DNA from: an uncultured Methanosarcinales archaeon
GTDB taxonomy: Archaea > Nanobdellota > Nanobdellia > Woesearchaeales > UBA583
Assembly: GCA_964562045.1 (NCBI GenBank)
Contig: CAZLRR010000003.1
Span: forward strand, 1-48,831
DNA length: 48,831 nucleotides
Direction of reading: 5' to 3'
The notes under the pieces are model-generated. The model was not told the DNA's origin. It was given only the letters and a program-made list of their open reading frames with translations, and searched no databases. The stretch's first letter is position 1, and every line of letters starts with the position of its first letter. The position numbers were made by a program, and so were the translations under genes. Shown here piece by piece: positions 709 through 48,747 of the stretch.

Positions 709-2418
709 ATGAAACTAACAATAAATGGAACAGAGTTTGAATTTGAGCAAGGAAAAACTATTCTTGAAGTAGCTAGAGAAAATGGTTTCAAAATCCCTAC
801 ACTTTGTCATATCAAAAATTTACTAACTCCGGGAGCTTGTAGAATGTGCGTTGTTGAAGTTGAAGGTGCAAGAACTTTAATTCCTTCTTGTTCAACTCCT
901 GCTGCTGATGGAATGAAAATTAATACAAACACTAAAAGAGTTTTAGATTCTAGAAAAACAAATTATCAATTTTTAATGGCATCTCACCCAGATTGTTTAT
1001 CTTGTGGGAAAAATAATAAATGTGAGCTGCAAAAAATTGGAAGTAATTTAGGAATTACAGAAAGAATTTTTGAGAAAAATATTGAAAGAAAAGTTGATGA
1101 CTCTGCGCCCGCATATATTCGTAATAATGACAAATGTGTTTTATGTCAAAGATGCGTGAATATTTGTGATAAAATTGTTGGAGTTTCAACTCTTGGTTTA
1201 ATTGGGAGAGGACATGAAACAAAAATTGGAAATGCATTTGACAAATCAATTATGGACTCGATTTGTATTGAATGTGGACAGTGTGTTCTTCATTGCCCAA
1301 CAGGTGCTCTTTTAGAGAAAAGAAACATAGATGATGTTGTAAAAGAAATCTCAAATCCGGAAAAATTTGTTGTAGTTCAAACAGCCCCAGCAGTTCGTGC
1401 AGCACTTGGTGAAGAGTTTGGAATGAGCGCAGGAAGTTTAGTTACTGGAAAAATGGTTGAAGCTCTAAAAAGATTAGGTTTTGATAGAGTACTCGATACA
1501 ACTTTTGGAGCTGATTTAACTATTATGGAAGAAGGGTTTGAACTTCTTGAACGAATTGAAAATGGAGGAACTTTGCCACAATTTACTTCATGCTGTCCGG
1601 CATGGGTTAAATTTGTAGAAGGATTTTACCCTGAGATGATTCCTCACCTTTCAACTTCAAAAAGTCCACATCAAATGCTCGGAGCGATGATAAAAGCGCA
1701 TTATGCTCAAAAATATGGAGTAGAAGCAAAAAATATCGTGAATGTTTCAATTATGCCTTGTACTGCAAAAAAATTCGAATCACAACGAAATGAAATGAAT
1801 GCAACAGATGGACTTTTAGATATAGATTATGTTTTAACTACTAGAGAACTTGGCCAAATGATTAAAGAAGTAGGACTTGATTTTGTAAATTTGCCAGAGA
1901 GTAATTTTGACCCACTCGGAGAAGGAACTGGTGCAGGAGATATTTTTGGAGCAACTGGAGGAGTTATGGAGGCAGCTCTTCGTACAGCATACGAAGTTAA
2001 AACTGGTAAGAAACTTGACAAACTAGAATTTGACCAAATCAGAGGAAACAAAAAAGTTAAAGAAGGAAAAATCTGGTTTGGAGAAAAGGAAGTTCGGTTT
2101 TTAGTTATTGCAACTCCAAAAGAAGCAATTCCCTACATTGAACAAATTAAGAAGGGTGAATCACCATATCAATTTATTGAGGTTATGACTTGTCCAGGTG
2201 GTTGTATTGGTGGTGGTGGACAGCCAATCCCAACTAATGAAGAAATTGTTGAAAAACGAATGCAAGGACTCTATAACTCGGATGCTTCAAAGGTTTTACG
2301 TAGAAGTTATGAAAATCCAGTTATTAAAGCTTTATACGATGAGTTTCTTGGAACTCCATTATCGGAAAAAGCTGAGAAGTATTTACATACAAGTTATGTG
2401 AAGAGGAAGGAGTATTAA
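709..2418 (+). CDS. hydA: [FeFe]-hydrogenase catalytic subunit, M3 (CpI-like) architecture
   Basis: 569-aa ORF with SD-like AAGGTGA about 7 nt upstream. It has an N-terminal 2Fe-2S ferredoxin-like Cys pattern, HPDCLSCGKNNKCELQ (His-ligated 4Fe-4S) and two CxxCxxCxxxCP motifs. All three H-cluster signatures are present: FTSCCPAW, MPCTAKKFE and EVMTCPGGCIGGGGQP. Confidence 0.9.
   Translation: MKLTINGTEFEFEQGKTILEVARENGFKIPTLCHIKNLLTPGACRMCVVEVEGARTLIPSCSTPAADGMKINTNTKRVLDSRKTNYQFLMASHPDCLSCGKNNKCELQKIGSNLGITERIFEKNIERKVDDSAPAYIRNNDKCVLCQRCVNICDKIVGVSTLGLIGRGHETKIGNAFDKSIMDSICIECGQCVLHCPTGALLEKRNIDDVVKEISNPEKFVVVQTAPAVRAALGEEFGMSAGSLVTGKMVEALKRLGFDRVLDTTFGADLTIMEEGFELLERIENGGTLPQFTSCCPAWVKFVEGFYPEMIPHLSTSKSPHQMLGAMIKAHYAQKYGVEAKNIVNVSIMPCTAKKFESQRNEMNATDGLLDIDYVLTTRELGQMIKEVGLDFVNLPESNFDPLGEGTGAGDIFGATGGVMEAALRTAYEVKTGKKLDKLEFDQIRGNKKVKEGKIWFGEKEVRFLVIATPKEAIPYIEQIKKGESPYQFIEVMTCPGGCIGGGGQPIPTNEEIVEKRMQGLYNSDASKVLRRSYENPVIKALYDEFLGTPLSEKAEKYLHTSYVKRKEY
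2272..2418 (+). repeat. Left copy of a 147-bp direct repeat (the in-frame, functional 3' end of hydA)
   Basis: Aligns without gaps to 3939-4085, 128/147 identical by hand count. Positions 2281-2346 differ at only 1 site. Confidence 0.9.
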
Positions 2419-2502: not shown

Positions 2503-3213
2503 ATGGAGTTTTTAAAATTCATAAAAGAGTTAAAAAAATATAATTTAACAATATTTACAACAAATGATATTGTAAAAATAACAAATCAAAATAAAAATAC
2601 AGTAAATCATTTCATAAAAAATCAAGTTGAAAAACAAAACATATTTCAATTAAAAAAAGGATTTTTCTCTGTAAAACAAATAGAGAACAAATATTTATAT
2701 TCAAAAATCTTCAAAAACACATATATCTCACTTAATTCTGCATTAGAATTTTATTCTATAACAACCCAGAGATATAATAATTTAGAACTAATTTCTGAAA
2801 AAGAATTAAAATCAACCAATATTAATGATACACAAATTAACATAATTAAATCTAAACATTATTTTGGATTTGAAAAACACGAAATCGAAGATAATCAAAC
2901 AATATTTGTTGCAAATAAAGAAAAATTATTAATAGATTGTCTTTTAAACCTAAAAATGGTATATTTATCAGAGATTATGAATTTCATAAAACAAACAAAA
3001 TTTAATATTGAAAGGCTCCAAAACTACCTTAAACAAATCAATTCGGCATCATTAAACAAAAGAATAGGATATTTATTAGAATTAAATAAAATTAGTATTA
3101 ATTTAGAAATAAATAATAAATATGAACTATTGAATACAAATTTAAAAAATAATGAATTAAGAAAAAATAAAAAATGGAAGTTAATAATAAATGAGGATTT
3201 AGAAAATGAATAG
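2503..3213 (+). CDS. abiEi: AbiEi-like antitoxin / transcriptional regulator (COG5340-type)
   Basis: 236 aa. N-terminal wHTH-like segment and a TYISLNSALEFYSITTQ region typical of AbiEi. The stop overlaps the start of the next gene by 8 nt. Confidence 0.65.
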   Translation: MEFLKFIKELKKYNLTIFTTNDIVKITNQNKNTVNHFIKNQVEKQNIFQLKKGFFSVKQIENKYLYSKIFKNTYISLNSALEFYSITTQRYNNLELISEKELKSTNINDTQINIIKSKHYFGFEKHEIEDNQTIFVANKEKLLIDCLLNLKMVYLSEIMNFIKQTKFNIERLQNYLKQINSASLNKRIGYLLELNKISINLEINNKYELLNTNLKNNELRKNKKWKLIINEDLENE

Positions 3214-3943
3214 AGAGGAACTAAGCGAATATAAAGCAAAAATGGGATATAATCTTGGTCAATTAGAATTAGATTATTATCATCATAAAATACTTGAAAT
3301 ATTATATAAAAAATATAACACATTATATTTTAAAGGTGGAACTTGTATGCAAAAATGTTATGGTTTGAAAAGATTTTCAGAAGATTTAGATTTTAATTAT
3401 ATTGATATAGATATTGAAAAATTAATAGAATATATAATCAAAGAATTAGATGTTGAGACTACACTTATAAATAGATATGAAACAAAATTTGGGATTAGTT
3501 TTGTATTAAAAATTAAAGGAATATTGTACACAGGTGCAGAAAATAGTTATTGCAGAGTAAGTTTAGATTTTAGAAAAGATGATACATATTTAGATACAAA
3601 AAAACTAATTATTCGTCCAATTTATAATGATTTAGACAATTATTTTTTACTTGCATTAAATGAAGAAGAAATTTTTGCTGAAAAAGTCAGAGCAACCATT
3701 ACTAGATATAAAGCAAGAGATATATTTGATTTAGTTGAATTATTATATAAGAATGTTAAAATAAATTATGAATTGATAAATCTGAAATTAAAAACTTATG
3801 ATTTAAAATATTCTAAAGATTTGTTATTGGAGAAGGTAAAAGAAAAAAAGGAAATATATCAGAAAGAAATTGGTAAATTAACTGATGTTTATTCTTCATT
3901 TGAAGAGTCTTTCGAATTAATTAATGAGAAGTTTGAATTATAA
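3206..3943 (+). CDS. abiEii: AbiEii / DUF1814 nucleotidyltransferase toxin
   Basis: 245 aa with the hallmarks FKGGTCMQKCYG and RFSEDLDF. It is translationally coupled to abiEi. Confidence 0.8.
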   Translation: MNREELSEYKAKMGYNLGQLELDYYHHKILEILYKKYNTLYFKGGTCMQKCYGLKRFSEDLDFNYIDIDIEKLIEYIIKELDVETTLINRYETKFGISFVLKIKGILYTGAENSYCRVSLDFRKDDTYLDTKKLIIRPIYNDLDNYFLLALNEEEIFAEKVRATITRYKARDIFDLVELLYKNVKINYELINLKLKTYDLKYSKDLLLEKVKEKKEIYQKEIGKLTDVYSSFEESFELINEKFEL

Positions 3944-4085
3944 TTCTGATGCTTCAAAGGTTTTACGTAGAAGTTATGAAAATCCTGTTATTAAAGCTTT
4001 ATACGATGAGTTCTTGGGCGAGCCTTTGTCTGAGAAAGCTGAGAAGTATTTGCATACAATTTATGTTAAAAGGAAGGAGTATTAG
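3939..4085 (+). pseudogene. Displaced promoterless copy of the last 48 codons of hydA (right direct repeat)
   Basis: Translates as YNSDASKVLRRSYENPVIKALYDEFLGEPLSEKAEKYLHTIYVKRKEY*, versus ...GTPLSEKAEKYLHTSYVKRKEY* in hydA. There are 19 nt differences, only 2 of them non-synonymous. It has no upstream hydA body. Confidence 0.85.
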
Positions 4086-4597
4086 GATTTTTTAAAAGAA
4101 TAATTTAAATTTAACAATAAAAATAATATTAATCCAAATAATATATAAATTAAACAAAAAGTTAAATAAGTTGTTCCAAAATTTTCTTTAGTAATTTCAT
4201 TGTATCTACAAGTAAACTTACTTAAAATTAATATTGGTTCAACAATTAATATTAAAGTTAATAAAAGAATTCCAGTACTAACCTTATTTTTAAAAAAATC
4301 ATTACTTAAATTGTCTTTATGCTTCTGTAAGTCTAAAGCAACAGAAACTCCTTCTTTTGTTATTGTATATACATTCTGAATATTTTTCCCAGCAAACATT
4401 TTTTCATATTTAAAATATCCTAAATCTTTAAAATATGAAATAAATTGATGAAAATCTAGATCATCATAAATCTGATTTCCAATTCTATGTTTTTCTTTAT
4501 TAGTTTTATGTGAAAAAATAATTTGAGGTTTATTTTCAAATAAATATAATAATATCTCTTTCCAATTTAATACCATTGGATATTTCTTTTTTGTCAT
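4082..4597 (-). CDS. Hypothetical protein: soluble N-terminal domain (possible wHTH) plus C-terminal TM helices
   Basis: 171-aa ORF with an ATG start and hydrophobic C-terminal segments (GILLLTLILIVEPILIL, LTFCLIYILFGLILFLLL). The stop overlaps the hydA remnant. Confidence 0.55.
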   Translation of the reverse strand: MTKKKYPMVLNWKEILLYLFENKPQIIFSHKTNKEKHRIGNQIYDDLDFHQFISYFKDLGYFKYEKMFAGKNIQNVYTITKEGVSVALDLQKHKDNLSNDFFKNKVSTGILLLTLILIVEPILILSKFTCRYNEITKENFGTTYLTFCLIYILFGLILFLLLNLNYSFKKS

Positions 4598-4966: not shown

Positions 4967-6001
4967 ATGACACAATCAAGAGAAATCTTGAGTAATATCG
5001 TAAAAGTTCTATCGGGACAAGAAAAAAATATTCTTGAAATAGCAAAAGAAACAAATATTGGTTGGGAAACTGCAAAATTAAACTTAGAAAAATTAGAAGA
5101 TTTAGGATTAGTAATTAAAACTGAAAAAGGAAAATATTTTGCCATTTCAAAAAAAAATCATAAAACATATTTCAAATTACCTATTAAAGAAGATATAATT
5201 AAAAAAGTTGAATCCTATTATGGACAAATAGTTAAATTGTGGGAAAAACTATACAATCAAAAACCTTCAAAACTTCAAATAACAAAAGTTTTAGCAGAAT
5301 TAAACAAAAATAAAAATTTAGAACTTCCTTTTGGTTGGTATCTCTATGGGCAATGCTGTGCAGTCATTTATAATGAAAAATTAGACTATGTCCCAAATTC
5401 AGATTACGAAAAAGAATTACTCCAAATCATACCAAAATATCTAAATAATCCAATCAAAAAACATTATGAAACATTCCCTAAAGATTCATATAATTTAAAA
5501 CAAGAAATCTTCGCACAACTCTGGAATCTTCAAGATTTGAGAAATACTAAACTTTTTGAAAAAGTTAAAGAATTTATGAAAGCCATTCTTTTAGATAAAG
5601 AAAAAATTTCGGATGATGCCCTAGATTACACAACAGAATTACTTTCTATTCTATATGAGTTAAAAGCAAATAACATTGAAATAACAGAAGAAATAAAGGA
5701 CCAAATAGATACATCTTTTAAAGAAATATGGAAACTTATAGGTTATGATTACTTTAAAGAAAGTTTTGCAGAGACAATAGATAAAAACATCTTGGATGCT
5801 TGTTTCAATAATGATAAAGAAAAACAAAAAGAAGAAATTATTATGCAATTATCTATGTTACAATCATATATAGAAAACTTAGAAATAAAAGATTCTCCAT
5901 TTGAAAAATTAAAAGAAAAAATAAACAATCCAGAAATAGATAAAAAAAATACAAATTTAAAATCTGAAAACGAAAAGCTATTCAATGATTTTGGCTTATA
6001 A
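4967..6001 (+). CDS. Hypothetical protein with an N-terminal wHTH
   Basis: 344 aa. ILEIAKETNIGWETAKLNLEKLEDLGLVIK resembles a winged helix. A TATA block (4933-4943) lies 23 nt upstream of the ATG. Confidence 0.65.
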   Translation: MTQSREILSNIVKVLSGQEKNILEIAKETNIGWETAKLNLEKLEDLGLVIKTEKGKYFAISKKNHKTYFKLPIKEDIIKKVESYYGQIVKLWEKLYNQKPSKLQITKVLAELNKNKNLELPFGWYLYGQCCAVIYNEKLDYVPNSDYEKELLQIIPKYLNNPIKKHYETFPKDSYNLKQEIFAQLWNLQDLRNTKLFEKVKEFMKAILLDKEKISDDALDYTTELLSILYELKANNIEITEEIKDQIDTSFKEIWKLIGYDYFKESFAETIDKNILDACFNNDKEKQKEEIIMQLSMLQSYIENLEIKDSPFEKLKEKINNPEIDKKNTNLKSENEKLFNDFGL

Positions 6002-6395
6002 TTTCTTCAGGCAAAGAAATTGGAATCTGAGTTTCAATTTTCAAAAAATGTTTTAAATTTCTTGTAACAATACTTTCTGCACCGGACTTTTCCGCTAAAA
6101 CAACATGCAATGCATCATCAGCATCACCTTTGGAAAGATTTTTTGCTTTTATCAGATCTTCTTCATCGTGAATAACTTTAATAATTTTGGGTTTTAATAA
6201 AGAAAAAATTCCCCTGTTTGGAGTTATATGATTAGATAACTCTTTCAAAGTCCAAGAAGATATAATAATATGATGTTTACAGGAAATTGCTTGTAAAAAT
6301 AAAGAATTTGCAGAATTAGACAAATCCCTATTACTCAGATTTTTTCTATCCAAAATTGCATCCAAAAATATGTTTGTATCCAAATAAAGCTTCAT
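5982..6395 (-). CDS. PIN-domain nuclease (VapC-like), with no adjacent antitoxin gene
   Basis: Motifs MKLYLDTNIFLDA, TLKEL and DADDALHVVLAEKSGAESIVTRN. I moved the start from TTG 6473 to ATG 6395, which lies 22 nt downstream of a TATA block. The last acidic position appears to be Asn. Confidence 0.7.
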   Translation of the reverse strand: MKLYLDTNIFLDAILDRKNLSNRDLSNSANSLFLQAISCKHHIIISSWTLKELSNHITPNRGIFSLLKPKIIKVIHDEEDLIKAKNLSKGDADDALHVVLAEKSGAESIVTRNLKHFLKIETQIPISLPEEIISQNH

Positions 6396-6417: not shown

Positions 6418-6448
6418 TTTAAAAAACTATCTGATGAAGTGAGTAGAA
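6418..6448 (-). promoter_or_regulatory. Upstream element TTCTACTCACTTCAT + 5 nt + AGTTTTTTAAA (promoter of the PIN gene)
   Basis: On the minus strand the 15-mer is at 6434-6448 and the BRE/TATA block at 6418-6428, followed by a 22-nt spacer to ATG 6395. This is one of four copies. Confidence 0.7.
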
Positions 6449-7547: not shown

Positions 7548-7865
7548 ATGAACTGTCATTCATACAATACATTCTTTGAAGTAATTGCAAATAAAACACG
7601 TTTAAAGATACTAGAAACTCTATCTAAAAAACCACTTTCAGTATCTCAAATTTGCGAAAAACTCGAAGAAGAACAATCAAAAATTTCCCACAATCTAAAA
7701 AAACTTTATGACTGTAATTTTCTCGAAGTTGAAACCAAAGGAAAACAAAGAATTTACACACTTAACAAAGATACAATTTCCCCTCTAATGGAACTTGTAA
7801 AAAAACACATTCAATATCATTGTCCAAAAAATTGTCAATGTGGAGGTCAAAAATGCAAAAAATAA
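7548..7865 (+). CDS. ArsR/SmtB-family transcriptional regulator with a Cys-rich C-terminal tail
   Basis: Motifs TRLKILETL and SVSQICEKLEEEQSKISHNLKKL. The tail is HCPKNCQCGGQKCKK. Confidence 0.8.
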   Translation: MNCHSYNTFFEVIANKTRLKILETLSKKPLSVSQICEKLEEEQSKISHNLKKLYDCNFLEVETKGKQRIYTLNKDTISPLMELVKKHIQYHCPKNCQCGGQKCKK

Positions 7866-14659: not shown

Positions 14660-14690
14660 TTCTACTCAGTTCATACCTCAGTTTTATAAA
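14660..14690 (+). promoter_or_regulatory. Upstream element TTCTACTCAGTTCAT + 5 nt + AGTTTTATAAA (uvrB promoter)
   Basis: The 15-mer is at 14660-14674 and the BRE/TATA block at 14680-14690, followed by a 21-nt spacer to ATG 14712. Confidence 0.7.
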
Positions 14691-14711
14691 TTCATAGTTC
14701 TTAAAAATATT

Positions 14712-16634
14712 ATGAAATTCAATCTTAAGTCTGAATATAAACCTGCGGGAGGGCAACCAGATGCAATAAAAGAAATTGTAGAAGGTTTCAAAAAAGGAAA
14801 AACTCATCAGACTCTAAGAGGAATTACTGGAAGTGGAAAAGGTTTTGTTATGGGGCAAACAATTTCTAAACTAAATAAACCAACATTAATTCTAGCACAC
14901 AATAAACTACTCGCAGCACAATTATATCAAGAAATGAAATCTCTGTTTCCAAACAATAGGGTTGAATATTTTATTTCATATTATGACTATTATCAGCCCG
15001 AAAGTTATGTTCCAACAACTGACACTTACATTGAAAAAGAAGCTACAATAAACCAAGAAATTGAAAAAATGAGACTGCGTACATTTTCCTCTCTTTTAAC
15101 TAGAAGTGATACAATTATTGTTGCATCAATTTCATGTATTTATGGTGCGGGAAATCCTGAAGACTATGAAAAACTCTCCGCAGAATTTGTTCTAGGAAAA
15201 TCTTATTCACGTTCTCAAATAATGCTAGATTTAGTTAATATGATGTATGAGAGAAATGACACAGCACTTGAAGAAGGAAGATTTAGAGTTAGAGGAGATA
15301 CTATTGATATAATTCCAGCGTATGAAAAAAACATTTACAGAATTGAACTTTTCGGAGATGAAATTGAAACAATTACTGAAATAGATACAGTTACTGGAGA
15401 TAAAATTTCAAGTCTTGATAAAATTAGAATTTTCCCCGCAAAACAATTTGTAGTGCCACAAGAAAAACAAGAAAGAGCAATCGAGATGATTAAAGCAGAA
15501 CTTGAAGAAAGAGTAAAAGAGTTAGGAGTACTTGAGGCTGCTCGGCTTAAACAAAAAGTTAAATACGATTTAGAAATGATTGAAGAAATGGGATATTGCA
15601 CAGGAATTGAAAACTATTCCAGATATTTCGATGGCAGAAAAGAAGGTCAGCCACCTTTTGTTTTACTGGATTATTTTCCAAAGGATTTTTTGTTAATTAT
15701 TGATGAATCTCATCAAACACTACCTCAATCAAGAGCAATGTATAACGGAGATAGAAGTAGAAAAGAGAATTTAGTTAATTTTGGTTTTAGACTACCCTCA
15801 GCATTTGATAATCGTCCATTAAAATTTAACGAGTTTGAGAACTATTTTAAAAATGTTTTATTTGTTAGTGCAACTCCAGGAGATTATGAAATTGAGCATT
15901 CAGATTTTGTTACTGATTTAATAATTCGTCCAACGGGATTACTTGACCCGGAAATCGAAATCAGAAGTAGTGAAGGACAAGTTAAAGATTTGATTTCTGA
16001 AATTAGAAAAGTTGTGGATATTGGAGATAGAATTCTAGTTACAACACTCACAAAAAGAATGGCAGAGGATTTAACTTCTTATCTTGCAAAAGCCAAAATT
16101 AAAGTTAGATATATGCACTCAGATATTGATAGTTTAGATAGGATTGAATTAGTTCGAGATTTAAGGGAAGGGAAATTTGATGTTCTGGTTGGAATAAATT
16201 TACTTCGTGAAGGTTTAGATATTCCAGAGGTGAGTCTTGTTGCAATTCTTGATGCAGACAAAGAAGGTTTCTTGCGTGATGAGAGAAGTCTTATTCAAAC
16301 TATTGGAAGAGCCGCTAGAAACGAAAATGGTAGAGTTATTATGTATGCCGATTATATGACTAAATCTATTGAAAATGCTGTAAAAATTACTCGTGAGAGA
16401 AGAAAAGCTCAAGAAGAATTTAACAAGAAGCATGGAATTATTCCTAGAACTATAAGTAAGAAAATTGCTGAGAAGAAAAGAGAAGTTAAAGGAACTAAAC
16501 ATATTGCAAAAGTCGATTTAGAAAAAGAAGTTATCGAACTTGAAGCTGAAATGCGAAAGGCTGCTGACGGACTTGATTTCGAAAGAGCAATTTCTCTTCG
16601 AGATAAAATTGAAGAGATGAAAAGAAGTTTGTGA
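14712..16634 (+). CDS. uvrB: Excinuclease ABC subunit B
   Basis: 640 aa. Motifs GITGSGKGF (Walker A), YYDYYQPE and IIDESHQT, plus a C-terminal UVR domain (LDFERAISLRDKIEEMK). Confidence 0.95.
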   Translation: MKFNLKSEYKPAGGQPDAIKEIVEGFKKGKTHQTLRGITGSGKGFVMGQTISKLNKPTLILAHNKLLAAQLYQEMKSLFPNNRVEYFISYYDYYQPESYVPTTDTYIEKEATINQEIEKMRLRTFSSLLTRSDTIIVASISCIYGAGNPEDYEKLSAEFVLGKSYSRSQIMLDLVNMMYERNDTALEEGRFRVRGDTIDIIPAYEKNIYRIELFGDEIETITEIDTVTGDKISSLDKIRIFPAKQFVVPQEKQERAIEMIKAELEERVKELGVLEAARLKQKVKYDLEMIEEMGYCTGIENYSRYFDGRKEGQPPFVLLDYFPKDFLLIIDESHQTLPQSRAMYNGDRSRKENLVNFGFRLPSAFDNRPLKFNEFENYFKNVLFVSATPGDYEIEHSDFVTDLIIRPTGLLDPEIEIRSSEGQVKDLISEIRKVVDIGDRILVTTLTKRMAEDLTSYLAKAKIKVRYMHSDIDSLDRIELVRDLREGKFDVLVGINLLREGLDIPEVSLVAILDADKEGFLRDERSLIQTIGRAARNENGRVIMYADYMTKSIENAVKITRERRKAQEEFNKKHGIIPRTISKKIAEKKREVKGTKHIAKVDLEKEVIELEAEMRKAADGLDFERAISLRDKIEEMKRSL

Positions 16635-28277: not shown

Positions 28278-29486
28278 TTATTTATTATGTTTTTTACCTT
28301 TCTTATATCCTCTCTTTCTTCCTACAACATATGCAAGAACAATAAGGATTAAAGCAATAACATATGTCCCAAAACCAGCACCACCAGAAGTAGCACCATT
28401 AAGACCAAGTTCAGCAAGTTTACCAGAACTATAAATTTTAATCGGAACACTAAATTCTTTTGATTCTTCATTATTATAACTATCAAGATATTCTGCTTTT
28501 ACATTAATCAAATCAACATCAGCACTTGAAACAAAAATTTCTGTCTGGACTGTTTGAAAATCATCCGGATTCAAATCTCCAACGTACTGGAACTCTCCCT
28601 CAATAACTTCATAACCCTCTCCAGGCAAAACTGTAATTCTAGTCCCTTTAATAGAACTAGTTCCAGGATTAGCAACATAAAAAGTATATTTTCCAGTACC
28701 TGTTGAATAAATTTCTTGTGAATCAAGTTTCAAAGACAAAATCGGTTCAGAAGAAACTCTAACACTACCAAGAATTTCTCTCTCATAAGAATTTCCAAGA
28801 CTATCTTCATAAGTTAAAGTAATCGGCAAAATATATGGTTTAGCCTCAGCATCAGGACTTGCAGTCAATTCAAACTCAATCATTTTTTGTTCATTACCTT
28901 TAATTCCTGATAAAATCTTCTCATTTGAACCCGAAGTAGTACTTAAAACTCCATCTTCAACTTCATCAAGACCTAAACTAACTACAATATTTTTTAAAGA
29001 AACTGAGTTTGTATTCTCCAATTTAATGCCCAAAGATGCAGATTTTCCTGGATTTATCTCACCAATCTCTATCTCATTCACTTGCAGAGTTGGATTAGCC
29101 TCCTCAACCAAAACATCAAACTCATATGTAAAAGCATTTCCACCTTTATTTACTCTAAATTCAACAGTATTAATTCCAATAGGTGCATTTTCAGAAACAA
29201 GTACCTTATATTTTGCAACAACAGTTGCAGAATCAATAACGCCCAAATTTTTTTGTGTATCACTTCCTGCCGCAATTTTAAAATTTTCATTCTCAATAAA
29301 AGTTAAAGTTACTGGTGAATTAGAACTTGTATCTGAAACTTTAACATTCAAATAAACAAAATTTCCTGGAGCTACTGGATCAGGGTTTTGTTCTGATAAA
29401 ATAACATTTATACCAAAAACTCCTGTCATGAAAAACAAGGATAAAAATCCTGCAATAAATAATTTAAATAAATTGTTTTGTATCAT
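28278..29486 (-). CDS. Exported beta-rich protein with a C-terminal membrane anchor (CARDB/COG1361-like), part of the ABC operon
   Basis: Signal/anchor FKLFIAGFLSLFFMTGVFG. The C-terminus is GAGFGTYVIALILIVLAYVVGRKRGYKKGKK. Confidence 0.65.
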   Translation of the reverse strand: MIQNNLFKLFIAGFLSLFFMTGVFGINVILSEQNPDPVAPGNFVYLNVKVSDTSSNSPVTLTFIENENFKIAAGSDTQKNLGVIDSATVVAKYKVLVSENAPIGINTVEFRVNKGGNAFTYEFDVLVEEANPTLQVNEIEIGEINPGKSASLGIKLENTNSVSLKNIVVSLGLDEVEDGVLSTTSGSNEKILSGIKGNEQKMIEFELTASPDAEAKPYILPITLTYEDSLGNSYEREILGSVRVSSEPILSLKLDSQEIYSTGTGKYTFYVANPGTSSIKGTRITVLPGEGYEVIEGEFQYVGDLNPDDFQTVQTEIFVSSADVDLINVKAEYLDSYNNEESKEFSVPIKIYSSGKLAELGLNGATSGGAGFGTYVIALILIVLAYVVGRKRGYKKGKKHNK

Positions 29487-29520
29487 TTTATATTTTATAT
29501 TTTATATTTTATATTTTATA
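29486..29520. repeat. Perfect heptanucleotide tandem repeat (TTTTATA)x5, i.e. (TATAAAA)x5 on the coding strand
   Basis: It fills the entire gap between the ABC ATPase stop (29516-29518) and the start codon of the exported-protein gene (29484-29486). Confidence 0.95.
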
Positions 29521-30223
29521 ATATTTTTGTATTTGGAGCATCACTAACAATTTGCCCATCCACCAAAGTAATTCTTCGATGAGCATAATGAGACAACTTA
29601 TCGTCGTGAGTAACTAATATGATTGTTTTTCCTTCTTTATGAAGTTTTTTTAAATACTCCATAACAATGTGCCCAGTTTTGGAATCCAAATTTCCAGTAG
29701 GCTCATCTGCCAGGATAATGTCGGGTTCATTAGCAAGCGCCCTAGCAATAGCCACCCTTTGTTGTTGACCGCCAGATAATTCAGAAGGTTTATTAATCAA
29801 TCTCTCAGCCATATCCAAAGTAACCAGCAACTCTTTTGCCTTATGTTTTCTATCATGTTTTGGAATTCCCTGAAAAATCATAGGAAGTTCAACATTTTCC
29901 TGAGCAGAAAGAGTTTTCACTAAATTAAATTTCTGGAAGATATAACCTATTTTTTTACCTCTAATAACTGCAAGTTCACTCTCAGTCAAATCAGAAATAT
30001 TATCTTCTCCTAAAAAAATCTCACCTTTTGAAGGATTATCCAAACATCCAATCATATTAACCGCAGTCGTTTTTCCTGAACCGGATTTTCCAATAATTGC
30101 AACAAATTCGCCCCGCCTCACACCAAAACTAAGTCCTTTCAAAGCATGAACAACATTGTCGCCCAGATGATAAGTTTTCCAAACATCCTTTAATTCAATA
30201 ACACTATTATTTTTTGTAGCCAT
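29516..30223 (-). CDS. ABC transporter ATP-binding protein (MacB/LolD type)
   Basis: Motifs GKSGSGKTT, LSGGQQQRVAIARAL, ILADEPTGNLD and VTHD. An alternative upstream ATG lies at 30253. Confidence 0.9.
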   Translation of the reverse strand: MATKNNSVIELKDVWKTYHLGDNVVHALKGLSFGVRRGEFVAIIGKSGSGKTTAVNMIGCLDNPSKGEIFLGEDNISDLTESELAVIRGKKIGYIFQKFNLVKTLSAQENVELPMIFQGIPKHDRKHKAKELLVTLDMAERLINKPSELSGGQQQRVAIARALANEPDIILADEPTGNLDSKTGHIVMEYLKKLHKEGKTIILVTHDDKLSHYAHRRITLVDGQIVSDAPNTKIL

Positions 30224-30803
30224 CTTCTTTCTCCCTGATTTTCTCCCTAACATTTTTTAATGAAGTTACAAACTTTTTAGCCATTTCATCTTCAATAATA
30301 CTAGACCTCATACAATTCTGATGATTTGCAACAAAAACCTCATATAACTTATTCTCCCCTTCCCTAGTAATCTGAACAATTTTCTCTCTTTTATTCGCAG
30401 GATTTTCCTTTCTAATTATTAACTTCTTCTCCTCCATACGATTAAGAAGACTTGAAATATTTGCTTTAGAACAAAAAATCATCTTAGATAATTTTTCCTG
30501 GGATAAGTTTTTCTGCCTGCCAAAATACAAAGTTTCAATAACTGCAAGCTGAGGCAAACTCAAATCATGTTCAAAAAGCATTTTAGTTAGAATTTCTTCT
30601 ATCATTTGAGATGTTCTAAGAACTGAAAACATGAACTTTCCGGTCAAATCTATCTCTTCACATTCTAAAATTCCATTATCCAAAATATCATCGTAATCAC
30701 TAAAATCTTTATTCCAGACCTCAGAATCCCGAATTGCTTGAAGATATTTACTGTTCATATACGAACTATTAGTATGTTGACAATTAATACCTTTTGTTTG
30801 CAC
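30207..30803 (-). CDS. MarR-family transcriptional regulator
   Basis: wHTH region LSLPQLAVIETLYF ... ANISSLLNRMEEKKLIIRKENPANKREKIVQITREG. The GTG start lies 24 nt downstream of a TATA block. Confidence 0.7.
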   Translation of the reverse strand: MQTKGINCQHTNSSYMNSKYLQAIRDSEVWNKDFSDYDDILDNGILECEEIDLTGKFMFSVLRTSQMIEEILTKMLFEHDLSLPQLAVIETLYFGRQKNLSQEKLSKMIFCSKANISSLLNRMEEKKLIIRKENPANKREKIVQITREGENKLYEVFVANHQNCMRSSIIEDEMAKKFVTSLKNVREKIREKEDGYKK

Positions 30804-36220: not shown

Positions 36221-37348
36221 ATGAAAGATAAAGATTATTTCAAAGAGATAAAAGAAATTGAAAAATTTTACACTGAAATAATCACAACACTTGATTTAAC
36301 TTTTCCAAAATGCATAAATCTGCAAGAAGAAAAACGTAAATTTTTCACTGCAAGAGTTGACGATAAATTTTATAATCCGCAATTAAAATTCATAAAAAAA
36401 GACTTTGATGAAAAAATAATTGAAAAACTAAACAATTTCAAAATCAATACATTTTTTGATAAATATGGAATTAAAAAACTATACAAAGAAAGACTTGAAG
36501 AAATCAAAAATGAAATTAAATATCAATCAATGTGGGGAAATTCACAAAACACAAAATACATTATTAAATGCAAAGGAATACCATCAAGAAAACTTCTAAA
36601 AAAAGCACAAAAATTTGCTAAAGAATATCAAAGAGTAAAAGTTCGGTTCGAAAGACTAACCCCAAGAAAAATAGGAAACGCCCTAAAAAATTATGTTAAA
36701 GAACTAACTGGAGATGAAGTTAAAGTTGAATATTTTGATATGCCCTCTAAAGTAAATATAGAACCAGCATTAAAATTAATCCAAATTAACCCAAATGAGA
36801 GATTCACATCACTTGACTTAGACAGATTAAAAGCACACGAAATTGATGTTCATTATATGAGATATTTCAACGGAAGAAATTCAGGAATCAAACTTTTAGA
36901 AAACGGAACTGCCCAGTATCTAAAAACAGAAGAAGGAATTGCAGTATTTAACGAAGATAGAGAAGGTGTGCTCTCAAAAGCTCAAATGTTTATTTATGCT
37001 GGAAGAGTTATTGCAACATATTATTGTTTAACAAAAAGTTTCTTTGAAATATTTGAAATCTTAAAAGAACATAATTTCCCCGATAGAGCCGCTTTTATGA
37101 TAACTTATCGTGCTAAAAGAAATCTTTGTGACACATCACAACTCGGAGGATTTACAAAAGATTACGTTTATTTTGAAGGTTATTTAATAATAAAAGAATA
37201 CTCAAAAAATCACGACATAAATGAACTTATGATGGGAAAAATAAAACTTGAAGACTTGAAAAAGCTAAAAAAATTCAAAAAGAAATTAATGCCAGAAGTT
37301 GTAACTTCATTTAGCGAAGAAACTCAAGAAGATATACAAGAAAGTTAA
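36221..37348 (+). CDS. DUF1704-family (MATCAP-like) putative metallocarboxypeptidase
   Basis: HEIDVH zinc motif followed by TEEGIAVF (QEGLA-like). Confidence 0.55.
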   Translation: MKDKDYFKEIKEIEKFYTEIITTLDLTFPKCINLQEEKRKFFTARVDDKFYNPQLKFIKKDFDEKIIEKLNNFKINTFFDKYGIKKLYKERLEEIKNEIKYQSMWGNSQNTKYIIKCKGIPSRKLLKKAQKFAKEYQRVKVRFERLTPRKIGNALKNYVKELTGDEVKVEYFDMPSKVNIEPALKLIQINPNERFTSLDLDRLKAHEIDVHYMRYFNGRNSGIKLLENGTAQYLKTEEGIAVFNEDREGVLSKAQMFIYAGRVIATYYCLTKSFFEIFEILKEHNFPDRAAFMITYRAKRNLCDTSQLGGFTKDYVYFEGYLIIKEYSKNHDINELMMGKIKLEDLKKLKKFKKKLMPEVVTSFSEETQEDIQES

Positions 37349-45218: not shown

Positions 45219-46061
45219 TCAGCTTAACTGATTATTCTTGCTAAAATGAATTTTCTTTGAATTCTCTTTTGTAACTATTTTTCTACCTGTTTGATTTTCA
45301 ATATCTCTTCTTGTATTTCCAGCAACACTTCCACCTTTTTTTGCAATAGTTTTGCTCTCTTCAAAATCTTTTGGATTCTCAACTTCTGAAAATTCTTTTG
45401 TTGTAATTTCTGCAAGCATATTTAATACTAACTCCATATTTGTCATATTATCTCTTAGATTTTCTCTTTTTAAACTTTTAAAATTCTTGTATTCTCTAAC
45501 ACTTTTACCTGACCAAGCCATAGTAATTTCGTTTGTGAGTATTGCATATTCATTAGGTTTATCAATTCCCGCCCTATTCCATTCATCAGTCAATTCTTTT
45601 CTAATATCAATTGATTTAAGTCTTTGATTTATCCATTCTTTTGAATATCCTTTTTTTGAATAATTATTCAATGCACGAGTTATAGAAATTTCTGGATCTT
45701 CAATTTCTTTAATTCTATCATCTCCAACTTGGGCAAGCCATAATTTAAATGGTTCCGCTTTCTTTGAAGGCACAGACTGAATTAGTCTTAATAATTGTTT
45801 TGTATTAGCAACATCAGTTTTGTAAAACTTTCCATCAGAGGATTGCATTTTCAGTTGGTTACAATTTGTAACCGACTGATTCCCTTCATCTAAAAGCCTT
45901 GATTTTAACACTTTCCAATAATTTCTAGCACCCTGATAATCGTTCTCTGTTAAAATTGCTATAACATCAACTATTGAAAAATACCACTCTTCTTCAATCT
46001 CATTCCATTGAACCCTTATTTTCTTATCACTAAACAATTTGATTGAATTATTTTTTGTCAT
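45219..46061 (-). CDS. dinD: Bro-N domain protein, DinD (DNA-damage-inducible protein D) family
   Basis: Bro-N pattern IKLFSDKKIRVQWNEIEEEWYFSIVDVIAIL. The C-terminal half (MTNMELVLNMLAEITTKE ... GGSVAGNTRRDIENQTG) resembles E. coli DinD as I recall it. Not searched. Confidence 0.65.
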   Translation of the reverse strand: MTKNNSIKLFSDKKIRVQWNEIEEEWYFSIVDVIAILTENDYQGARNYWKVLKSRLLDEGNQSVTNCNQLKMQSSDGKFYKTDVANTKQLLRLIQSVPSKKAEPFKLWLAQVGDDRIKEIEDPEISITRALNNYSKKGYSKEWINQRLKSIDIRKELTDEWNRAGIDKPNEYAILTNEITMAWSGKSVREYKNFKSLKRENLRDNMTNMELVLNMLAEITTKEFSEVENPKDFEESKTIAKKGGSVAGNTRRDIENQTGRKIVTKENSKKIHFSKNNQLS

Positions 46062-46083: not shown

Positions 46084-46114
46084 TTTATAAATCTACCTAA
46101 TGAAGTGAGTAGAA
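46084..46114 (-). promoter_or_regulatory. Upstream element TTCTACTCACTTCAT + 5 nt + AGATTTATAAA (promoter of the dinD-like gene)
   Basis: On the minus strand the 15-mer is at 46100-46114 and the BRE/TATA block at 46084-46094, followed by a 22-nt spacer to ATG 46061. Confidence 0.7.
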
Positions 46115-46118
46115 AATT

Positions 46119-46751
46119 TTACTTCTTAGCATATTTCGAATAAACTTTCTTTATCGGTTTCTTGTATGTCTTTTTATATGTTGGTTTAGATGTTATTTTA
46201 TCCGTTGTTTTATTTGTTACATTAGTTGCAGTTTTAGGTTTTGAGTAAGATTTCTTAGTGGTATTTTTTACCAAATCTCCAAGAACACTCTTTTCCTGAG
46301 GCCTATTCCAAAATTTAAGTTTTTCAAAAAAGCCATATTTCTTTTTCGTTGTTTTCTCATAAACCTCAATAATGTTTTTCATAGCATCAACTCTCCCCTC
46401 TAGGTGAGATAAAATACTATCTAAAATATAATTTTTCCAATCTTTATTGAAATGATACATCGGAACAAAAAAAATACCGCATTGCTTGTAAATTCCTTTT
46501 TTGTGGTCCGCAGATTTTTTATAATTCTCATCATATTTATACATTCCAAAATATTCAATAACAATCTGATAATCTGTCAAATAAAAATCCGGATACCAAA
46601 GTTTTGTTTTATCCTCATCTTTTACAGCAATTGGAAACTCATACTCAAAATTAATTTCCTGAGCAGTTAAAAATTTTGCAATTTCAAGTTCTCCTTTACT
46701 CTTATAATTTATTCCCTTGAAAGGATATTCTCTAAATTTTTTATTTATCAT
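46119..46751 (-). CDS. PD-(D/E)xK-superfamily nuclease-like protein (Vsr/DUF559-like core) with a Lys/Thr-rich tail
   Basis: Core pattern KSKGELEIAKFL ... FEYEF ... WYPDFYL ... IVIEYFG. Confidence 0.5.
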   Translation of the reverse strand: MINKKFREYPFKGINYKSKGELEIAKFLTAQEINFEYEFPIAVKDEDKTKLWYPDFYLTDYQIVIEYFGMYKYDENYKKSADHKKGIYKQCGIFFVPMYHFNKDWKNYILDSILSHLEGRVDAMKNIIEVYEKTTKKKYGFFEKLKFWNRPQEKSVLGDLVKNTTKKSYSKPKTATNVTNKTTDKITSKPTYKKTYKKPIKKVYSKYAKK

Positions 46752-47181: not shown

Positions 47182-47949
47182 TTAGTATTCAAAATCATCA
47201 TTGAGTGAAATAAAATTAGACTGTCCCATCTGCTCTTTTATCAAATACTTTCTTGCAACAAGAGTTGCGATATTTCTAGAAACTGAAGATTTAGGAATAT
47301 GCATTTTTGATTCTATTTCTTTTTGAGTTTGTTTTCCCCCTGTTTTTATGATTTCAAGGATTTGTTTTTGACGCTCAGTTAAAATTTCATATTTGATTTT
47401 CTCTTTTCCTGATGAACTTTTTTTTGTAAGAGATTCATGCTTTTCTAAAAGAGTTTTATTGCTATAATTTACTTTAAACATAAGTCCAACAACAATTAAA
47501 GCAATCATAATAAAAAGCCCTGCAAGAATCAAAACACCCGAAGAATAAAAACTTCCTGAAGAAAAACCAATCGTATATTGAATTTGAATATTCAAATTTT
47601 GGTTACTTGCAAGCCCAATAATTTTAATTCTCTCACCTTCCTGAGCAATACGAAAATTCTTAGTTGTTTTAACATAATTTATATTCGCATTTTCGGGCAA
47701 AATTACTTCATAAATGTATTCATCAAAAACTTCAGAAGAACTAATATTCAAAAGCCAAAACTCACCTTTTTTTGAGGTGAAATTTTGAGTCTGTGAAAGA
47801 TTTTCAAAAGAAGGAGAATTTGTAACACCATCAATTTTAACAAGTCCAGAAGAATCAACATCAAAAGTTAAATCAGCATAATAACCTTGTGCAAATACTG
47901 AAAAAGTCGTTAAAACAAATACAAATAGAAAGATTGTCTTTCTTATCAT
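47182..47949 (-). CDS. Membrane-anchored wHTH regulator (signal peptide, extracytoplasmic domain, TM, cytoplasmic MarR-like wHTH)
   Basis: Signal peptide IFLFVFVLTTFSVFA, TM helix VLILAGLFIMIALIVVGLMF, and wHTH LTERQKQILEIIKTGGKQTQKEIESKMHIPKSSVSRNIATLVARKYLIKE. Confidence 0.65.
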   Translation of the reverse strand: MIRKTIFLFVFVLTTFSVFAQGYYADLTFDVDSSGLVKIDGVTNSPSFENLSQTQNFTSKKGEFWLLNISSSEVFDEYIYEVILPENANINYVKTTKNFRIAQEGERIKIIGLASNQNLNIQIQYTIGFSSGSFYSSGVLILAGLFIMIALIVVGLMFKVNYSNKTLLEKHESLTKKSSSGKEKIKYEILTERQKQILEIIKTGGKQTQKEIESKMHIPKSSVSRNIATLVARKYLIKEQMGQSNFISLNDDFEY

Positions 47950-48346: not shown

Positions 48347-48377
48347 TTCTACTCATTTCATAGCCAAGTTTTTTAAA
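48347..48377 (+). promoter_or_regulatory. Upstream element TTCTACTCATTTCAT + 5 nt + AGTTTTTTAAA (promoter of the DUF1016_N gene)
   Basis: The 15-mer is at 48347-48361 and the BRE/TATA block at 48367-48377, followed by a 22-nt spacer to ATG 48400. Confidence 0.7.
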
Positions 48378-48399: not shown

Positions 48400-48747
48400 A
48401 TGATAGAAAAATCAAATTATAAAAAACTAATTTCTGAGGTGAAAAAAATAGTACTACTCTCGAAATCAAAAATATATTCAACAATAAATATAACTTTAGT
48501 TAAAACTTATTATAAAATTGGTAAATATATTCTAAGTTACTTAGAAGAAAATAAAGAAAATGAAAACATATTTTTTGAAAAGTTAACAAAAGAATTAAAG
48601 TCTGATTTGGGCAAAGGATTTTCAAGATCTAATTTAATTTATATGAGATTATTTGCTAAAAAGTATGATAGTCAGACACTGTCTGACCAGTTAAGTTGGT
48701 CACATTATGTTGAACTTTTAAATATTGGGGTGAGATTAGAAAAATGA
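48400..48747 (+). CDS. YhcG/DUF1016 N-terminal-domain protein lacking the PD-(D/E)xK C-terminal half
   Basis: Motifs YYKIGKYIL, FSRSNLIYMRLFAKKY and LSWSHYVELL. The ORF stops after 115 aa. Confidence 0.6.
   Translation: MIEKSNYKKLISEVKKIVLLSKSKIYSTINITLVKTYYKIGKYILSYLEENKENENIFFEKLTKELKSDLGKGFSRSNLIYMRLFAKKYDSQTLSDQLSWSHYVELLNIGVRLEK

What the first reader, a model, noticed from the sequence alone, without database searches (positions are those of the whole stretch)
14660..14714. 15-nt element TTCTACTCAnTTCAT at a fixed position upstream of the TATA box links uvrB to dinD-like, PIN and DUF1016_N genes: candidate archaeal DNA-damage/defence regulon
Seen directly: four promoters share the same layout. 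Each has TTCTACTCA[G/C/C/T]TTCAT, then exactly 5 nt, then the 11-nt block AG(T/A)TTT(T/A)TAAA, then 21-22 nt, then ATG. The four are uvrB (14660-14690, +), the DinD/Bro-N homologue (46084-46114, -), the PIN nuclease (6418-6448, -) and the DUF1016_N gene (48347-48377, +). Fourteen of the 15 positions are invariant. About a dozen other promoters I checked in the window have the TATA block at the same distance but lack the 15-mer. From established knowledge, uvrB and dinD are both LexA/SOS genes in E. coli, and archaea lack LexA. I know of no operator of this kind for DPANN-like archaea. My inference is that this is the binding site of an unidentified regulator, or of an alternative TFB, that co-controls repair and nuclease/defence genes.
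Basis: partly seen in the sequence, partly recalled or inferred. Interest (0 to 1): 0.8.

Follow-up and report, generated by a model that had tools for sequence, protein, structure and literature searches.

The report
Shared upstream promoter box in a DPANN archaeon
Four genes of an uncultured DPANN archaeon (the repair gene uvrB, a DinD-like gene and two nuclease or defence-type genes) carry the same 15-base box at one fixed position just upstream of their core promoter, which most likely marks the binding site of an unknown regulator that switches them on together.

Summary
TTCTACTCANTTCAT occurs exactly four times in the window, against 0 in shuffles. Each copy is followed by 5 nt, AGWTTTWTAAA, 21-22 nt and a leaderless ATG. 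There are no 1-2-mismatch copies, and similarity ends at the box and the TATA block, so this is not a mobile repeat.

The downstream genes are UvrB, a Bro-N protein with E. coli DinD's architecture (PADLOC PDC-S13), a PIN nuclease and a DUF1016_N protein (PDC-S02).

The organism is a Nanoarchaeota/Woesearchaeota-type DPANN archaeon. Three near-identical strains keep the sites. The closest other uvrB and Bro-N orthologues (70-76% identity) lack the box, so it is lineage-specific.

The same layout recurs in two contigs of one unrelated metagenome. One 2-kb contig has two such promoters, each with a degenerate second box 31-32 nt upstream. These drive an ORF6N/PDC-S05 gene and a 75-aa gene.

The box lies at -52 to -38, next to an A-poor BRE. 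The best reading is a transcription-factor site, probably an activator of the ara-box/TFB-RF1/EarA type.

The repair and defence theme is supported only by gene families. The regulator, the signal and the rest of the regulon are unknown. This is a new member of a known kind, of moderate interest.

The parts
14660..14674 (+). 15-nt box TTCTACTCAGTTCAT upstream of uvrB (about -52 to -38 from the ATG)
   Evidence: Exact match. Identical in three other assemblies of the same species.
14680..14690 (+). AG + TATA box (AGTTTTATAAA) of the uvrB promoter, 21 nt before the ATG
   Evidence: The BRE positions are A-poor (1 A in 6).
14712..16634 (+). uvrB (640 aa), leaderless
   Evidence: Pfam UvrB_inter, Helicase_C, UvrB, ResIII and UVR. 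65-76% identical to Nanoarchaeota/Woesearchaeota UvrB.
46100..46114 (-). 15-nt box TTCTACTCACTTCAT upstream of the Bro-N/DinD-like gene
   Evidence: Exact match. Also present in L164/L165 of the same species.
46084..46094 (-). AG + TATA box (AGATTTATAAA), 22 nt before the ATG
45219..46061 (-). Bro-N + DinD-type C-module protein (280 aa), PADLOC PDC-S13
   Evidence: Pfam Bro-N. PDC-S13 at E 8e-128. E. coli DinD is also PDC-S13 with Bro-N. Pairwise 26% identity over 73 aa in the C-half, E 2e-5.
6434..6448 (-). 15-nt box TTCTACTCACTTCAT upstream of the PIN gene
   Evidence: Exact match.
6418..6428 (-). AG + TATA box (AGTTTTTTAAA), 22 nt before the ATG at 6395
5982..6395 (-). Stand-alone PIN-domain nuclease (137 aa)
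   Evidence: Pfam PIN_3 and PIN. No PADLOC hit.
48347..48361 (+). 15-nt box TTCTACTCATTTCAT upstream of the DUF1016_N gene
   Evidence: Exact match. Also present in L183/L184.
48367..48377 (+). AG + TATA box (AGTTTTTTAAA), 22 nt before the ATG
48400..48747 (+). DUF1016_N protein (115 aa), PADLOC PDC-S02. It is followed by an overlapping 121-aa ORF that runs past the window end.
   Evidence: Pfam DUF1016_N. PDC-S02 at E 1e-25. The downstream ORF is seen in L183 1042-1407.

Best explanation
The 15-nt box is the binding site of a sequence-specific transcription factor that has not been identified. The box reads TTCTACTCA-N-TTCAT in this species and TTCTACTCA-N-YTCA-D across organisms.

It lies at about -52 to -38, two bases upstream of the BRE, always in the same orientation and at the same 5-nt distance from the AG+TATA block of leaderless promoters. 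The BRE of these promoters is poorer in A than that of other promoters of this genome.

The most likely mechanism is activation. The bound factor would contact TFB or TBP and recruit them to an otherwise weak core promoter. This would switch on together a small, lineage-specific set of genes:
- uvrB.
- A DinD-type Bro-N gene.
- A PIN nuclease.
- A DUF1016_N gene.
- In a second organism, an ORF6N/PDC-S05 gene and a 75-aa gene.

Shown: the element, its fixed geometry, its restriction to promoters, its recurrence in a second organism, and the gene families.

Inferred: factor binding, activation rather than repression, and the signal (DNA damage or virus/mobile-element attack).
For: - The box matches exactly four times against 0 expected, and there are no intermediate copies.
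- Conservation is confined to the box and the TATA block, while the spacer and flanks are at background. This points to selection on the box rather than recent duplication.
- All sites are intergenic, co-oriented with the gene, and 5 nt from AGW-TATA, with the ATG 21-22 nt further on.
- The same box with the same 5-nt spacing occurs in two archaeal contigs of an unrelated metagenome (L135, L152).
- L135 (2 kb) has four copies of the core. They form two promoters, each with a proximal box plus a degenerate distal box 31-32 nt (three helical turns) upstream. This is typical of cooperative factor binding.
- The BRE positions hold 1.75 A against 3.25 A in 20 other leaderless promoters (one-sided Mann-Whitney p = 0.005).
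[quoted passage not shown] Examples are the ara-box factor, TFB-RF1, EarA and Ptr2 (PMC5512572).
- The gene theme is coherent. UvrB and a DinD-architecture protein are both LexA targets in E. coli (established knowledge). PDC-S13, PDC-S02 and PDC-S05 are candidate defence families, and PDC-S05 is protective in E. coli (PMC12881386). DPANN archaea are enriched in such single-gene candidates (PMC12988326).
Against: - There is no expression, TSS or binding data, and no regulator has been identified. The five local (w)HTH proteins cannot be linked to the box, and the one structure model was unusable.
- Only 4 sites were found in about 59 kb of this species, plus 3 proximal sites elsewhere.
- The BRE argument rests on n = 4 and on an assumed A-rich optimum.
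- The box is absent from the uvrB and Bro-N promoters of the nearest relatives, so there is no phylogenetic footprint beyond near-identical strains.
- 14/14 identity among the four sites is stricter than usual for factor sites.
- In L152 no ORF starts at the expected distance. The next ATG is 113 nt downstream, and the leader has no significant fold.
Confidence: 0.6

Rival explanations
1. The box is an operator for a repressor, following LexA-like logic. The bound factor extends over the adjacent BRE and blocks TFB/TBP until a damage or infection signal removes it.
For: - The box ends only 2 nt from the BRE, so a dimer footprint could cover it.
- The gene content mirrors SOS genes (uvrB, dinD-type).
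- Potentially toxic nucleases (PIN, DUF1016) are usually kept off.
- Near-perfect sites suit tight repression.
Against: - Archaeal repressors usually overlap the BRE/TATA or the TSS rather than lying upstream (PMC5512572).
- The strict orientation and spacing relative to the TATA box, and the A-poor BRE, are what is expected of activator-dependent promoters.
- The distal copies lie further upstream, away from the core promoter.
Confidence: 0.25
2. The box is an extended core-promoter element read by an alternative TFB or TBP paralogue, giving a dedicated general-factor regulon.
For: - The spacing to the TATA box is fixed, the orientation is single, and the sequence is all-or-none.
- The four promoters share AG immediately before the TATA box.
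Against: - The box lies beyond the 6-7-nt BRE contacted by the TFB HTH.
- A 5-nt non-conserved spacer separates it from the AG-TATA block.
- L135 has additional distal copies 31-32 nt upstream, with no TATA box of their own at the right distance.
- No TFB or TBP gene is in the window.
Confidence: 0.07
3. The box is a copied promoter cassette or a remnant of a mobile element, or a recombination site for gene cassettes, with no common regulation.
For: Three of the four genes lie in AT-rich accessory regions next to AbiE, nuclease and relaxase-like genes. The Bro-N gene is horizontally mobile, with about 70% identity across archaea and bacteria.
Against: - Similarity stops at the box and the TATA block; the spacer is at 0.17 and the flanks at 0.35-0.39.
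- uvrB is a vertically inherited core gene.
- The position is fixed relative to the TATA box and the ATG.
- The box is absent from IMG/VR viral contigs in promoter layout.
- Orthologous Bro-N genes elsewhere lack the box, so it did not travel with the gene.
Confidence: 0.05

Closest known systems
Sulfolobus ara-box, P. furiosus TFB-RF1 site, M. maripaludis EarA boxes, M. jannaschii Ptr2 sites (archaeal upstream activating sequences; PMC5512572)
   Same: These are short sequence boxes immediately upstream of the BRE/TATA. The boxes can be repeated. The promoters have a sub-optimal BRE or TATA box. Like the ara-box, this box is shared by several unlinked promoters.
   Different: - The sequence is different and the lineage is different (DPANN).
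- This box is longer, asymmetric and nearly invariant, at a single fixed distance.
- The factor is unknown and activation has not been shown.
- The regulon consists of repair, nuclease and defence-type genes, not metabolism or motility.
E. coli LexA/SOS regulon
   Same: It contains uvrB and dinD. Here uvrB and a DinD-architecture gene share one promoter box.
   Different: The SOS box is a palindrome (CTGT-N8-ACAG) overlapping a bacterial promoter and is bound by a repressor. The box here is asymmetric, lies upstream of an archaeal BRE/TATA, and no LexA is seen in the window.
Sulfolobales Orc1-2 DNA-damage regulon (PMC6061795, listed; the ANTTTC motif is recalled from memory)
   Same: It is the only worked-out archaeal DNA-damage-responsive regulon, and it is defined by a short promoter motif.
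   Different: The hexamer ANTTTC does not occur in either strand of the box. No Orc1/Cdc6 gene is in the window. The phylum is different, and that regulon does not centre on UvrABC.
Actinobacterial PafBC (RecA-NDp motif) and Caulobacter DriD, WYL-domain activators of LexA-independent damage regulons (PMC6789036 and PMC12340889, listed)
   Same: An activator site at a fixed distance from the core promoter element defines a damage regulon.
   Different: These act on the bacterial sigma/RNAP machinery. No WYL domain was detected in the local HTH proteins.
Conserved early-gene regulatory sequence marking anti-defence genes in archaeal viruses (PMC11065993)
   Same: A shared promoter-proximal consensus ties together otherwise unrelated small defence-related genes in archaea and can be used to predict members.
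   Different: That motif is viral, Sulfolobales-specific and marks anti-defence genes. The box here is chromosomal, from a DPANN archaeon, and includes a housekeeping repair gene.

Membership tests
Archaeal upstream activating sequence (ara-box / TFB-RF1 / EarA / Ptr2 type) | Site lies immediately upstream of the BRE/TATA, co-oriented with the promoter | tested here: met
   The box lies at -52 to -38, 5 nt before the AGW-TATA block, in all 4 window promoters and 3 promoters of L135/L152.
Archaeal upstream activating sequence (ara-box / TFB-RF1 / EarA / Ptr2 type) | Target promoters have a sub-optimal BRE or TATA box | tested here: inconclusive
   The BRE positions hold 1.75 A against 3.25 A in 20 other promoters, p = 0.005. 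However, n = 4 and BRE strength is assumed, not measured. The TATA boxes themselves are consensus.
Archaeal upstream activating sequence (ara-box / TFB-RF1 / EarA / Ptr2 type) | A specific protein binds the site and recruits TFB/TBP, so that transcription rises | not testable with these tools
   This needs EMSA or footprinting and in vitro transcription.
LexA/SOS regulon | Palindromic operator overlapping the core promoter | tested here: not met
   The box is asymmetric, has no inverted repeat, and lies upstream of the BRE.
LexA/SOS regulon | LexA (S24 peptidase + wHTH) repressor present | not testable with these tools
   None of the window proteins scanned matched.
LexA/SOS regulon | Regulon contains uvrB and dinD | tested here: met
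   UvrB. The Bro-N protein and E. coli DinD are both PDC-S13 with the same architecture.
Sulfolobales Orc1-2 DDR motif | ANTTTC hexamer in target promoters | tested here: not met
   Reading the four boxes and their reverse complements shows no ANTTTC in the conserved part.
Mobile repeat / duplicated segment | Similarity extends beyond the core into the flanks | tested here: not met
   Flanks are at 0.35-0.39 and the spacer at 0.17 pairwise identity, against 0.94 in the box.
Alternative-TFB promoter (variant BRE) | Conserved element occupies the BRE, directly abutting the TATA box | tested here: not met
   Eight nt (the 5-nt variable spacer plus AGW) lie between the box and the TATA 8-mer. Distal copies in L135 lie 31-32 nt further upstream.
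PADLOC candidate defence families (for the controlled genes) | Full-length HMM match | tested here: met
   - Bro-N protein: PDC-S13, E 8e-128.
- DUF1016_N: PDC-S02, E 1e-25.
- L135 ORF6N protein: PDC-S05, E 3e-117.
- PIN and UvrB: no specific defence family.

The most novel reading that the evidence does not exclude
A DPANN archaeon has an SOS-like inducible regulon, switched on by DNA damage or by virus/mobile-element attack. In this regulon a novel activator couples nucleotide-excision repair (uvrB) to a DinD-type protein and to single-gene candidate defence nucleases (PDC-S13, PDC-S02, PDC-S05, PIN) through one 15-bp upstream box. This would be the first regulatory circuit described for DPANN. 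It would also be an archaeal counterpart of the bacterial damage-to-defence link.
Probability: 0.3. Interest if true: 0.75.

Novelty: new member of a known kind. Interest (0 to 1): 0.5.

Why it matters
Almost nothing is known about gene regulation in DPANN archaea, and no archaeal equivalent of the SOS regulon exists outside the Sulfolobales. A precisely defined box carrying about 28 bits gives a direct handle for three tasks:
- Listing the whole regulon once a complete genome is scanned.
- Fishing out the regulator by DNA affinity.
- Flagging uncharacterised small genes as functionally linked to repair or defence. Candidates are the 75-aa protein, the stand-alone PIN and the PDC candidates. 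This is the same logic that found anti-defence genes in archaeal viruses.

The co-occurrence of uvrB with a DinD-type gene and with PDC-S02, PDC-S05 and PDC-S13 also offers indirect support that these 'guilt-by-embedding' candidates act on DNA damage or foreign DNA.

The limits are that the element is confined to a narrow uncultured lineage and that the evidence is purely sequence-based.

Tried and rejected
- **GTDB species genomes.** A scan for box + TATA gave 9 single hits in unrelated bacteria and archaea, all chance-like. The species itself is not in the collection.
- **IMG/VR scans.** Box + TATA gave one hit inside a coding region of a giant-virus-like contig. The CTCA variant gave none. 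The tandem-box pattern gave only coding tandem repeats. The box is therefore not a viral promoter motif in that collection.
- **Phylogenetic footprinting.** The nearest UvrB (70-76% identity; L159-L163) and Bro-N orthologues (70-73% identity; L166-L175) have no box. The strains at 90% identity or more (GCA_048615555.1, SRR19844289, SRR29060565) are identical across the whole intergenic region, so they are uninformative.
- **Search for uvrA of this species.** The aim was to test the NER-regulon idea. A homologue search with a relative's UvrA, followed by cluster look-ups, gave no accessions, and the one contig fetched was another organism. This test remains undone.
- **Extension beyond the window.** 9.9 kb past the right end (L183) holds no new site.
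- **Candidate regulators.** Sequence search of solved structures and PADLOC for the 344-aa wHTH gave only weak Csa3 and Sso10a-like wHTH hits. Its AF2 model had pLDDT 41 and was discarded. The 255-aa protein is a membrane-anchored AspA-like wHTH. None of these could be tied to the box.
- **Bro-N or ORF6N as the common autoregulator.** The two proteins show no significant similarity to each other, so this was rejected.
- **RNA explanations.** There are no Rfam or tRNA hits in the window or in L135/L152. The 93-nt leader in L152 has no significant fold (z = 0.23).
- **Core TCTACTC in relatives.** It occurs at chance frequency, except in the L161 uvrC promoter repeat, which is noted but not claimed.
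Full report
**1.

The pattern TTCTACTCANTTCAT occurs exactly four times in the 48.8-kb window: at 14660-14674 (+), 48347-48361 (+), 46100-46114 (-) and 6434-6448 (-). None is expected in 100 dinucleotide-preserving shuffles. Allowing one or two mismatches adds no site. Three-mismatch matches occur at chance frequency and away from promoters.

Each copy is followed by 5 unrelated bases, then the block AG(T/A)TTT(T/A)TAAA, then 21-22 bases, then an ATG. I scored every one of 189 TATA-like sites in the window for the box at the fixed offset. Four sites scored 14/14 and all the rest 9/14 or less, so the box is all-or-none in this genome.

Anchored, ungapped comparison of the four loci gives the following mean pairwise identities:
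- 0.94 in the box and 0.89 in the TATA block.
- 0.17 in the spacer.
- 0.35-0.39 in the 100 nt upstream and in the coding sequence.

This is not a repeated mobile sequence.

**2. The genes and the organism**

Pfam confirms the four downstream genes:
- A complete UvrB (14712-16634).
- A Bro-N protein (45219-46061, minus strand).
- A stand-alone PIN nuclease (5982-6395, minus strand; the real start is the ATG at 6395).
- A 115-aa DUF1016_N protein (48400-48747).

The window is chromosomal archaeal DNA. It carries the S13-S4-S11-RpoD-L13-S9 operon. Its promoters are typical leaderless archaeal promoters, with an A-rich BRE plus TTTATAAA about 21-23 nt before the ATG.

The same species is present in NCBI MAG GCA_048615555.1 and in two Logan assemblies.

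**3. How far the 'DinD-like / defence' label is justified**

The Bro-N protein matches the PADLOC candidate defence family PDC-S13 over its full length (E 8e-128). E. coli DinD, fetched from MG1655, is also PDC-S13 (E 2e-121). It has the same architecture, a Bro-N domain followed by a C-terminal module. The two C-halves align directly at 26% identity over 73 aa (E 2e-5). The gene is a DinD-type gene in architecture and family, not merely a Bro-N protein.

The DUF1016_N protein matches PDC-S02 (E 1e-25). The PIN protein matches no PADLOC model.

Three of the four genes lie in AT-rich accessory regions, next to an AbiEi/AbiEii pair, a PD-(D/E)XK-like nuclease and HTH genes. uvrB lies among housekeeping genes.

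According to PMC12988326, DPANN archaea are enriched in AbiE, SoFic and several single-gene PDC candidates. According to PMC12881386, a PDC-S05 representative protected E. coli against T4, T5 and T7.

**4. Evidence from elsewhere**

A scan of one genome per GTDB species for box plus TATA gave only nine single, chance-like hits in unrelated taxa. The metagenome scan gave 29 hits. Two of them, both from metagenome Ga0102943, have the exact layout in AT-rich archaeal contigs.

L135 is the informative one. This 2-kb contig holds four copies of the core TTCTACTCA-NN-TCA, arranged as two promoters:
- **The ORF6N gene.** It is preceded by TTCTACTCATCTCAT, then 5 nt, ATGTTTATAAA, 21 nt and the ATG. 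A degenerate copy (TTCTACTAACCTCAA) lies 32 nt upstream.
- **The next gene, a 75-aa ORF of unknown family.** It is preceded by a perfect box with the same spacing. A second copy (TTCTACTCACCTCAG) lies 31 nt upstream.

The ORF6N protein is PADLOC PDC-S05 over its full length (E 3e-117). Its C-terminal part weakly matches the PADLOC DrmC model.

In L152 the box sits between two divergent TATA boxes on a contig that encodes Kae1. The nearest co-oriented ORF, a treble-clef zinc-finger protein, starts 113 nt downstream.

The element therefore exists in at least one other organism with the same geometry. The cross-organism consensus is TTCTACTCA-N-YTCA-D, so the second half-box tolerates variation. 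Proximal and distal pairs three helical turns apart are what cooperative binding of a protein predicts.

**5. What the relatives show**

The nearest non-identical uvrB genes (70-76% protein identity; L159-L163) and Bro-N orthologues (70-73%; L166-L175) have no box in their promoters. Strains of the same species are identical over the whole uvrB intergenic region, apart from one 2-bp indel, so they give no footprint.

The element is therefore confined to a narrow lineage. It did not travel with the horizontally mobile Bro-N gene, which is about 70% identical in thousands of archaeal and bacterial records. A further 9.9 kb of the species beyond the window end holds no additional site.

I could not reach uvrA, uvrC or radA of this organism. 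The key test of a repair regulon therefore remains open.

**6. Mechanism**

With the A of the ATG as +1, the elements lie as follows:
- TATA 8-mer: about -29 to -22.
- BRE: about -35 to -30.
- Box: -52 to -38.

The box thus ends two bases upstream of the BRE. Its centre is about two helical turns from the TATA centre.

[quoted passage not shown] Examples are the ara-box factor, TFB-RF1, EarA and Ptr2. Repressors usually overlap the BRE/TATA or the start site (PMC5512572).

The six BRE positions of the four box promoters contain on average 1.75 A, against 3.25 A in 20 other leaderless promoters of the window (one-sided Mann-Whitney p = 0.005). This is consistent with a weak BRE that needs help.

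I therefore commit to the following reading. An unidentified sequence-specific factor binds the box, and a distal copy too where one exists, and activates these promoters by recruiting TFB/TBP. My estimates are:
- About 0.85 that the box is a factor-binding cis-regulatory site.
- About 0.6 for the activator model as a whole.
- About 0.25 for a repressor.
- Under 0.1 each for an alternative-TFB element or a copied cassette.

The signal is inferred only from gene content. uvrB and a DinD-type gene are both SOS genes in E. coli, and the other members are nucleases or candidate defence genes. The likely signal is DNA damage or foreign-DNA attack, but nothing here tests that.

**7. Regulator**

Five (w)HTH proteins are encoded in the window:
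- 4082-4597.
- 4967-6001.
- 7548-7865, ArsR-type, next to cysteine desulfurase and NifU genes.
- 30207-30803, MarR-type, next to an ABC transporter.
- 47182-47949, membrane-anchored and AspA-like.

None has the box in its own promoter and none could be linked to it. A single-sequence AF2 model of the 344-aa protein was unusable, with pLDDT 41. The Bro-N and ORF6N proteins are not similar to each other, so neither is a shared autoregulator.

**8. Comparison and novelty**

The element works like an archaeal upstream activating sequence. It meets the positional criterion of that class, while the binding and activation criteria are untestable here.

It is not an SOS box, because it is asymmetric and lies upstream of the BRE. 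It does not contain the Sulfolobales Orc1-2 hexamer. It is not a variant BRE and not a mobile repeat.

It is best filed as a new member of a known kind: a lineage-specific transcription-factor box defining a small regulon. The interesting feature is the gene set, which couples uvrB to a DinD-type gene and to single-gene candidate defence nucleases in a DPANN archaeon.

I score interest at 0.5. The element is real, clean and testable, and it touches an open question, namely damage and defence regulation in DPANN. However, it is narrow in distribution, supported by seven proximal sites only, and has no functional data.

Noticed in passing
window 45219-46061 (-): The Bro-N/DinD-type protein (PADLOC PDC-S13) has about 65-74% identical full-length relatives in thousands of records, spanning Woesearchaeota, Nanoarchaeota, Flavobacteriaceae and Bacteroidia. 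This is unusually high cross-domain conservation for a 280-aa accessory protein and suggests recent, wide horizontal spread.
   Followed up: partly
L161 8288-8348 (Woesearchaeote contig Ga0129284_10002518): The uvrC promoter of a relative carries the 21-nt unit TCTCAGCCCTCTACTCTACAC repeated about 2.5 times, abutting the TATA box. The unit contains the core TCTACTC of the box studied here, but at a different spacing. It may be a diverged analogue or a coincidence.
   Followed up: partly
L161 3715-7945: UvrA of this relative is called as three consecutive ORFs (252, 450 and 708 aa). The middle one has no Pfam hit. This may be an insertion or intein-like interruption, or frameshifts.
   Followed up: no
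L135 443-670 (-): A 75-aa ORF under a perfect box promoter has no hit in Pfam, NCBIfam, PHROGs or PADLOC. It is a candidate new member of the regulon, of unknown function.
   Followed up: partly
window 2503-3943 (+): An AbiEi/AbiEii toxin-antitoxin (abortive infection) pair lies at the left end of the AT-rich region that also holds the PIN gene.
   Followed up: yes
window 46119-46751 (-): A 210-aa protein directly upstream of the Bro-N gene weakly matches PD-(D/E)XK / HNH-type nuclease models (PADLOC HEAT_CxxC_PD-DEXK at E 3e-8; PHROG HNH endonuclease at E 4e-8). It has its own box-less promoter.
   Followed up: partly
window 47182-47949 (-): A 255-aa protein appears, from reading its sequence, to have an N-terminal signal/extracytoplasmic part and a hydrophobic stretch that looks like a membrane helix. 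It has a C-terminal AspA/MarR-like winged helix, which would make it a membrane-anchored one-component regulator. It lies between the two right-hand box promoters.
   Followed up: partly
window 48400-48747 (+) and L183 1042-1407: The DUF1016_N gene is only 115 aa and lacks the usual C-terminal nuclease domain. It overlaps by 4 nt a 121-aa ORF without any family hit. This may be a split gene or a two-gene module.
   Followed up: partly
window 709-2418 (+): A full-length [FeFe]-hydrogenase large-subunit-type protein with N-terminal 2Fe-2S/4Fe-4S domains is encoded in this DPANN genome.
   Followed up: no
window 36221-37348 (+): A protein matches the MATCAP (microtubule-associated tyrosine carboxypeptidase) family at E 7e-35. 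This is an unexpected family name for an archaeon.
   Followed up: no
window about 29487-29530 (-), upstream of 28278-29486: A short tandem run (AAATATA)n fills the last 30 nt or so before the ATG of a 402-aa Pfam-less gene that heads a MacB/FtsX ABC-transporter cluster.
   Followed up: no
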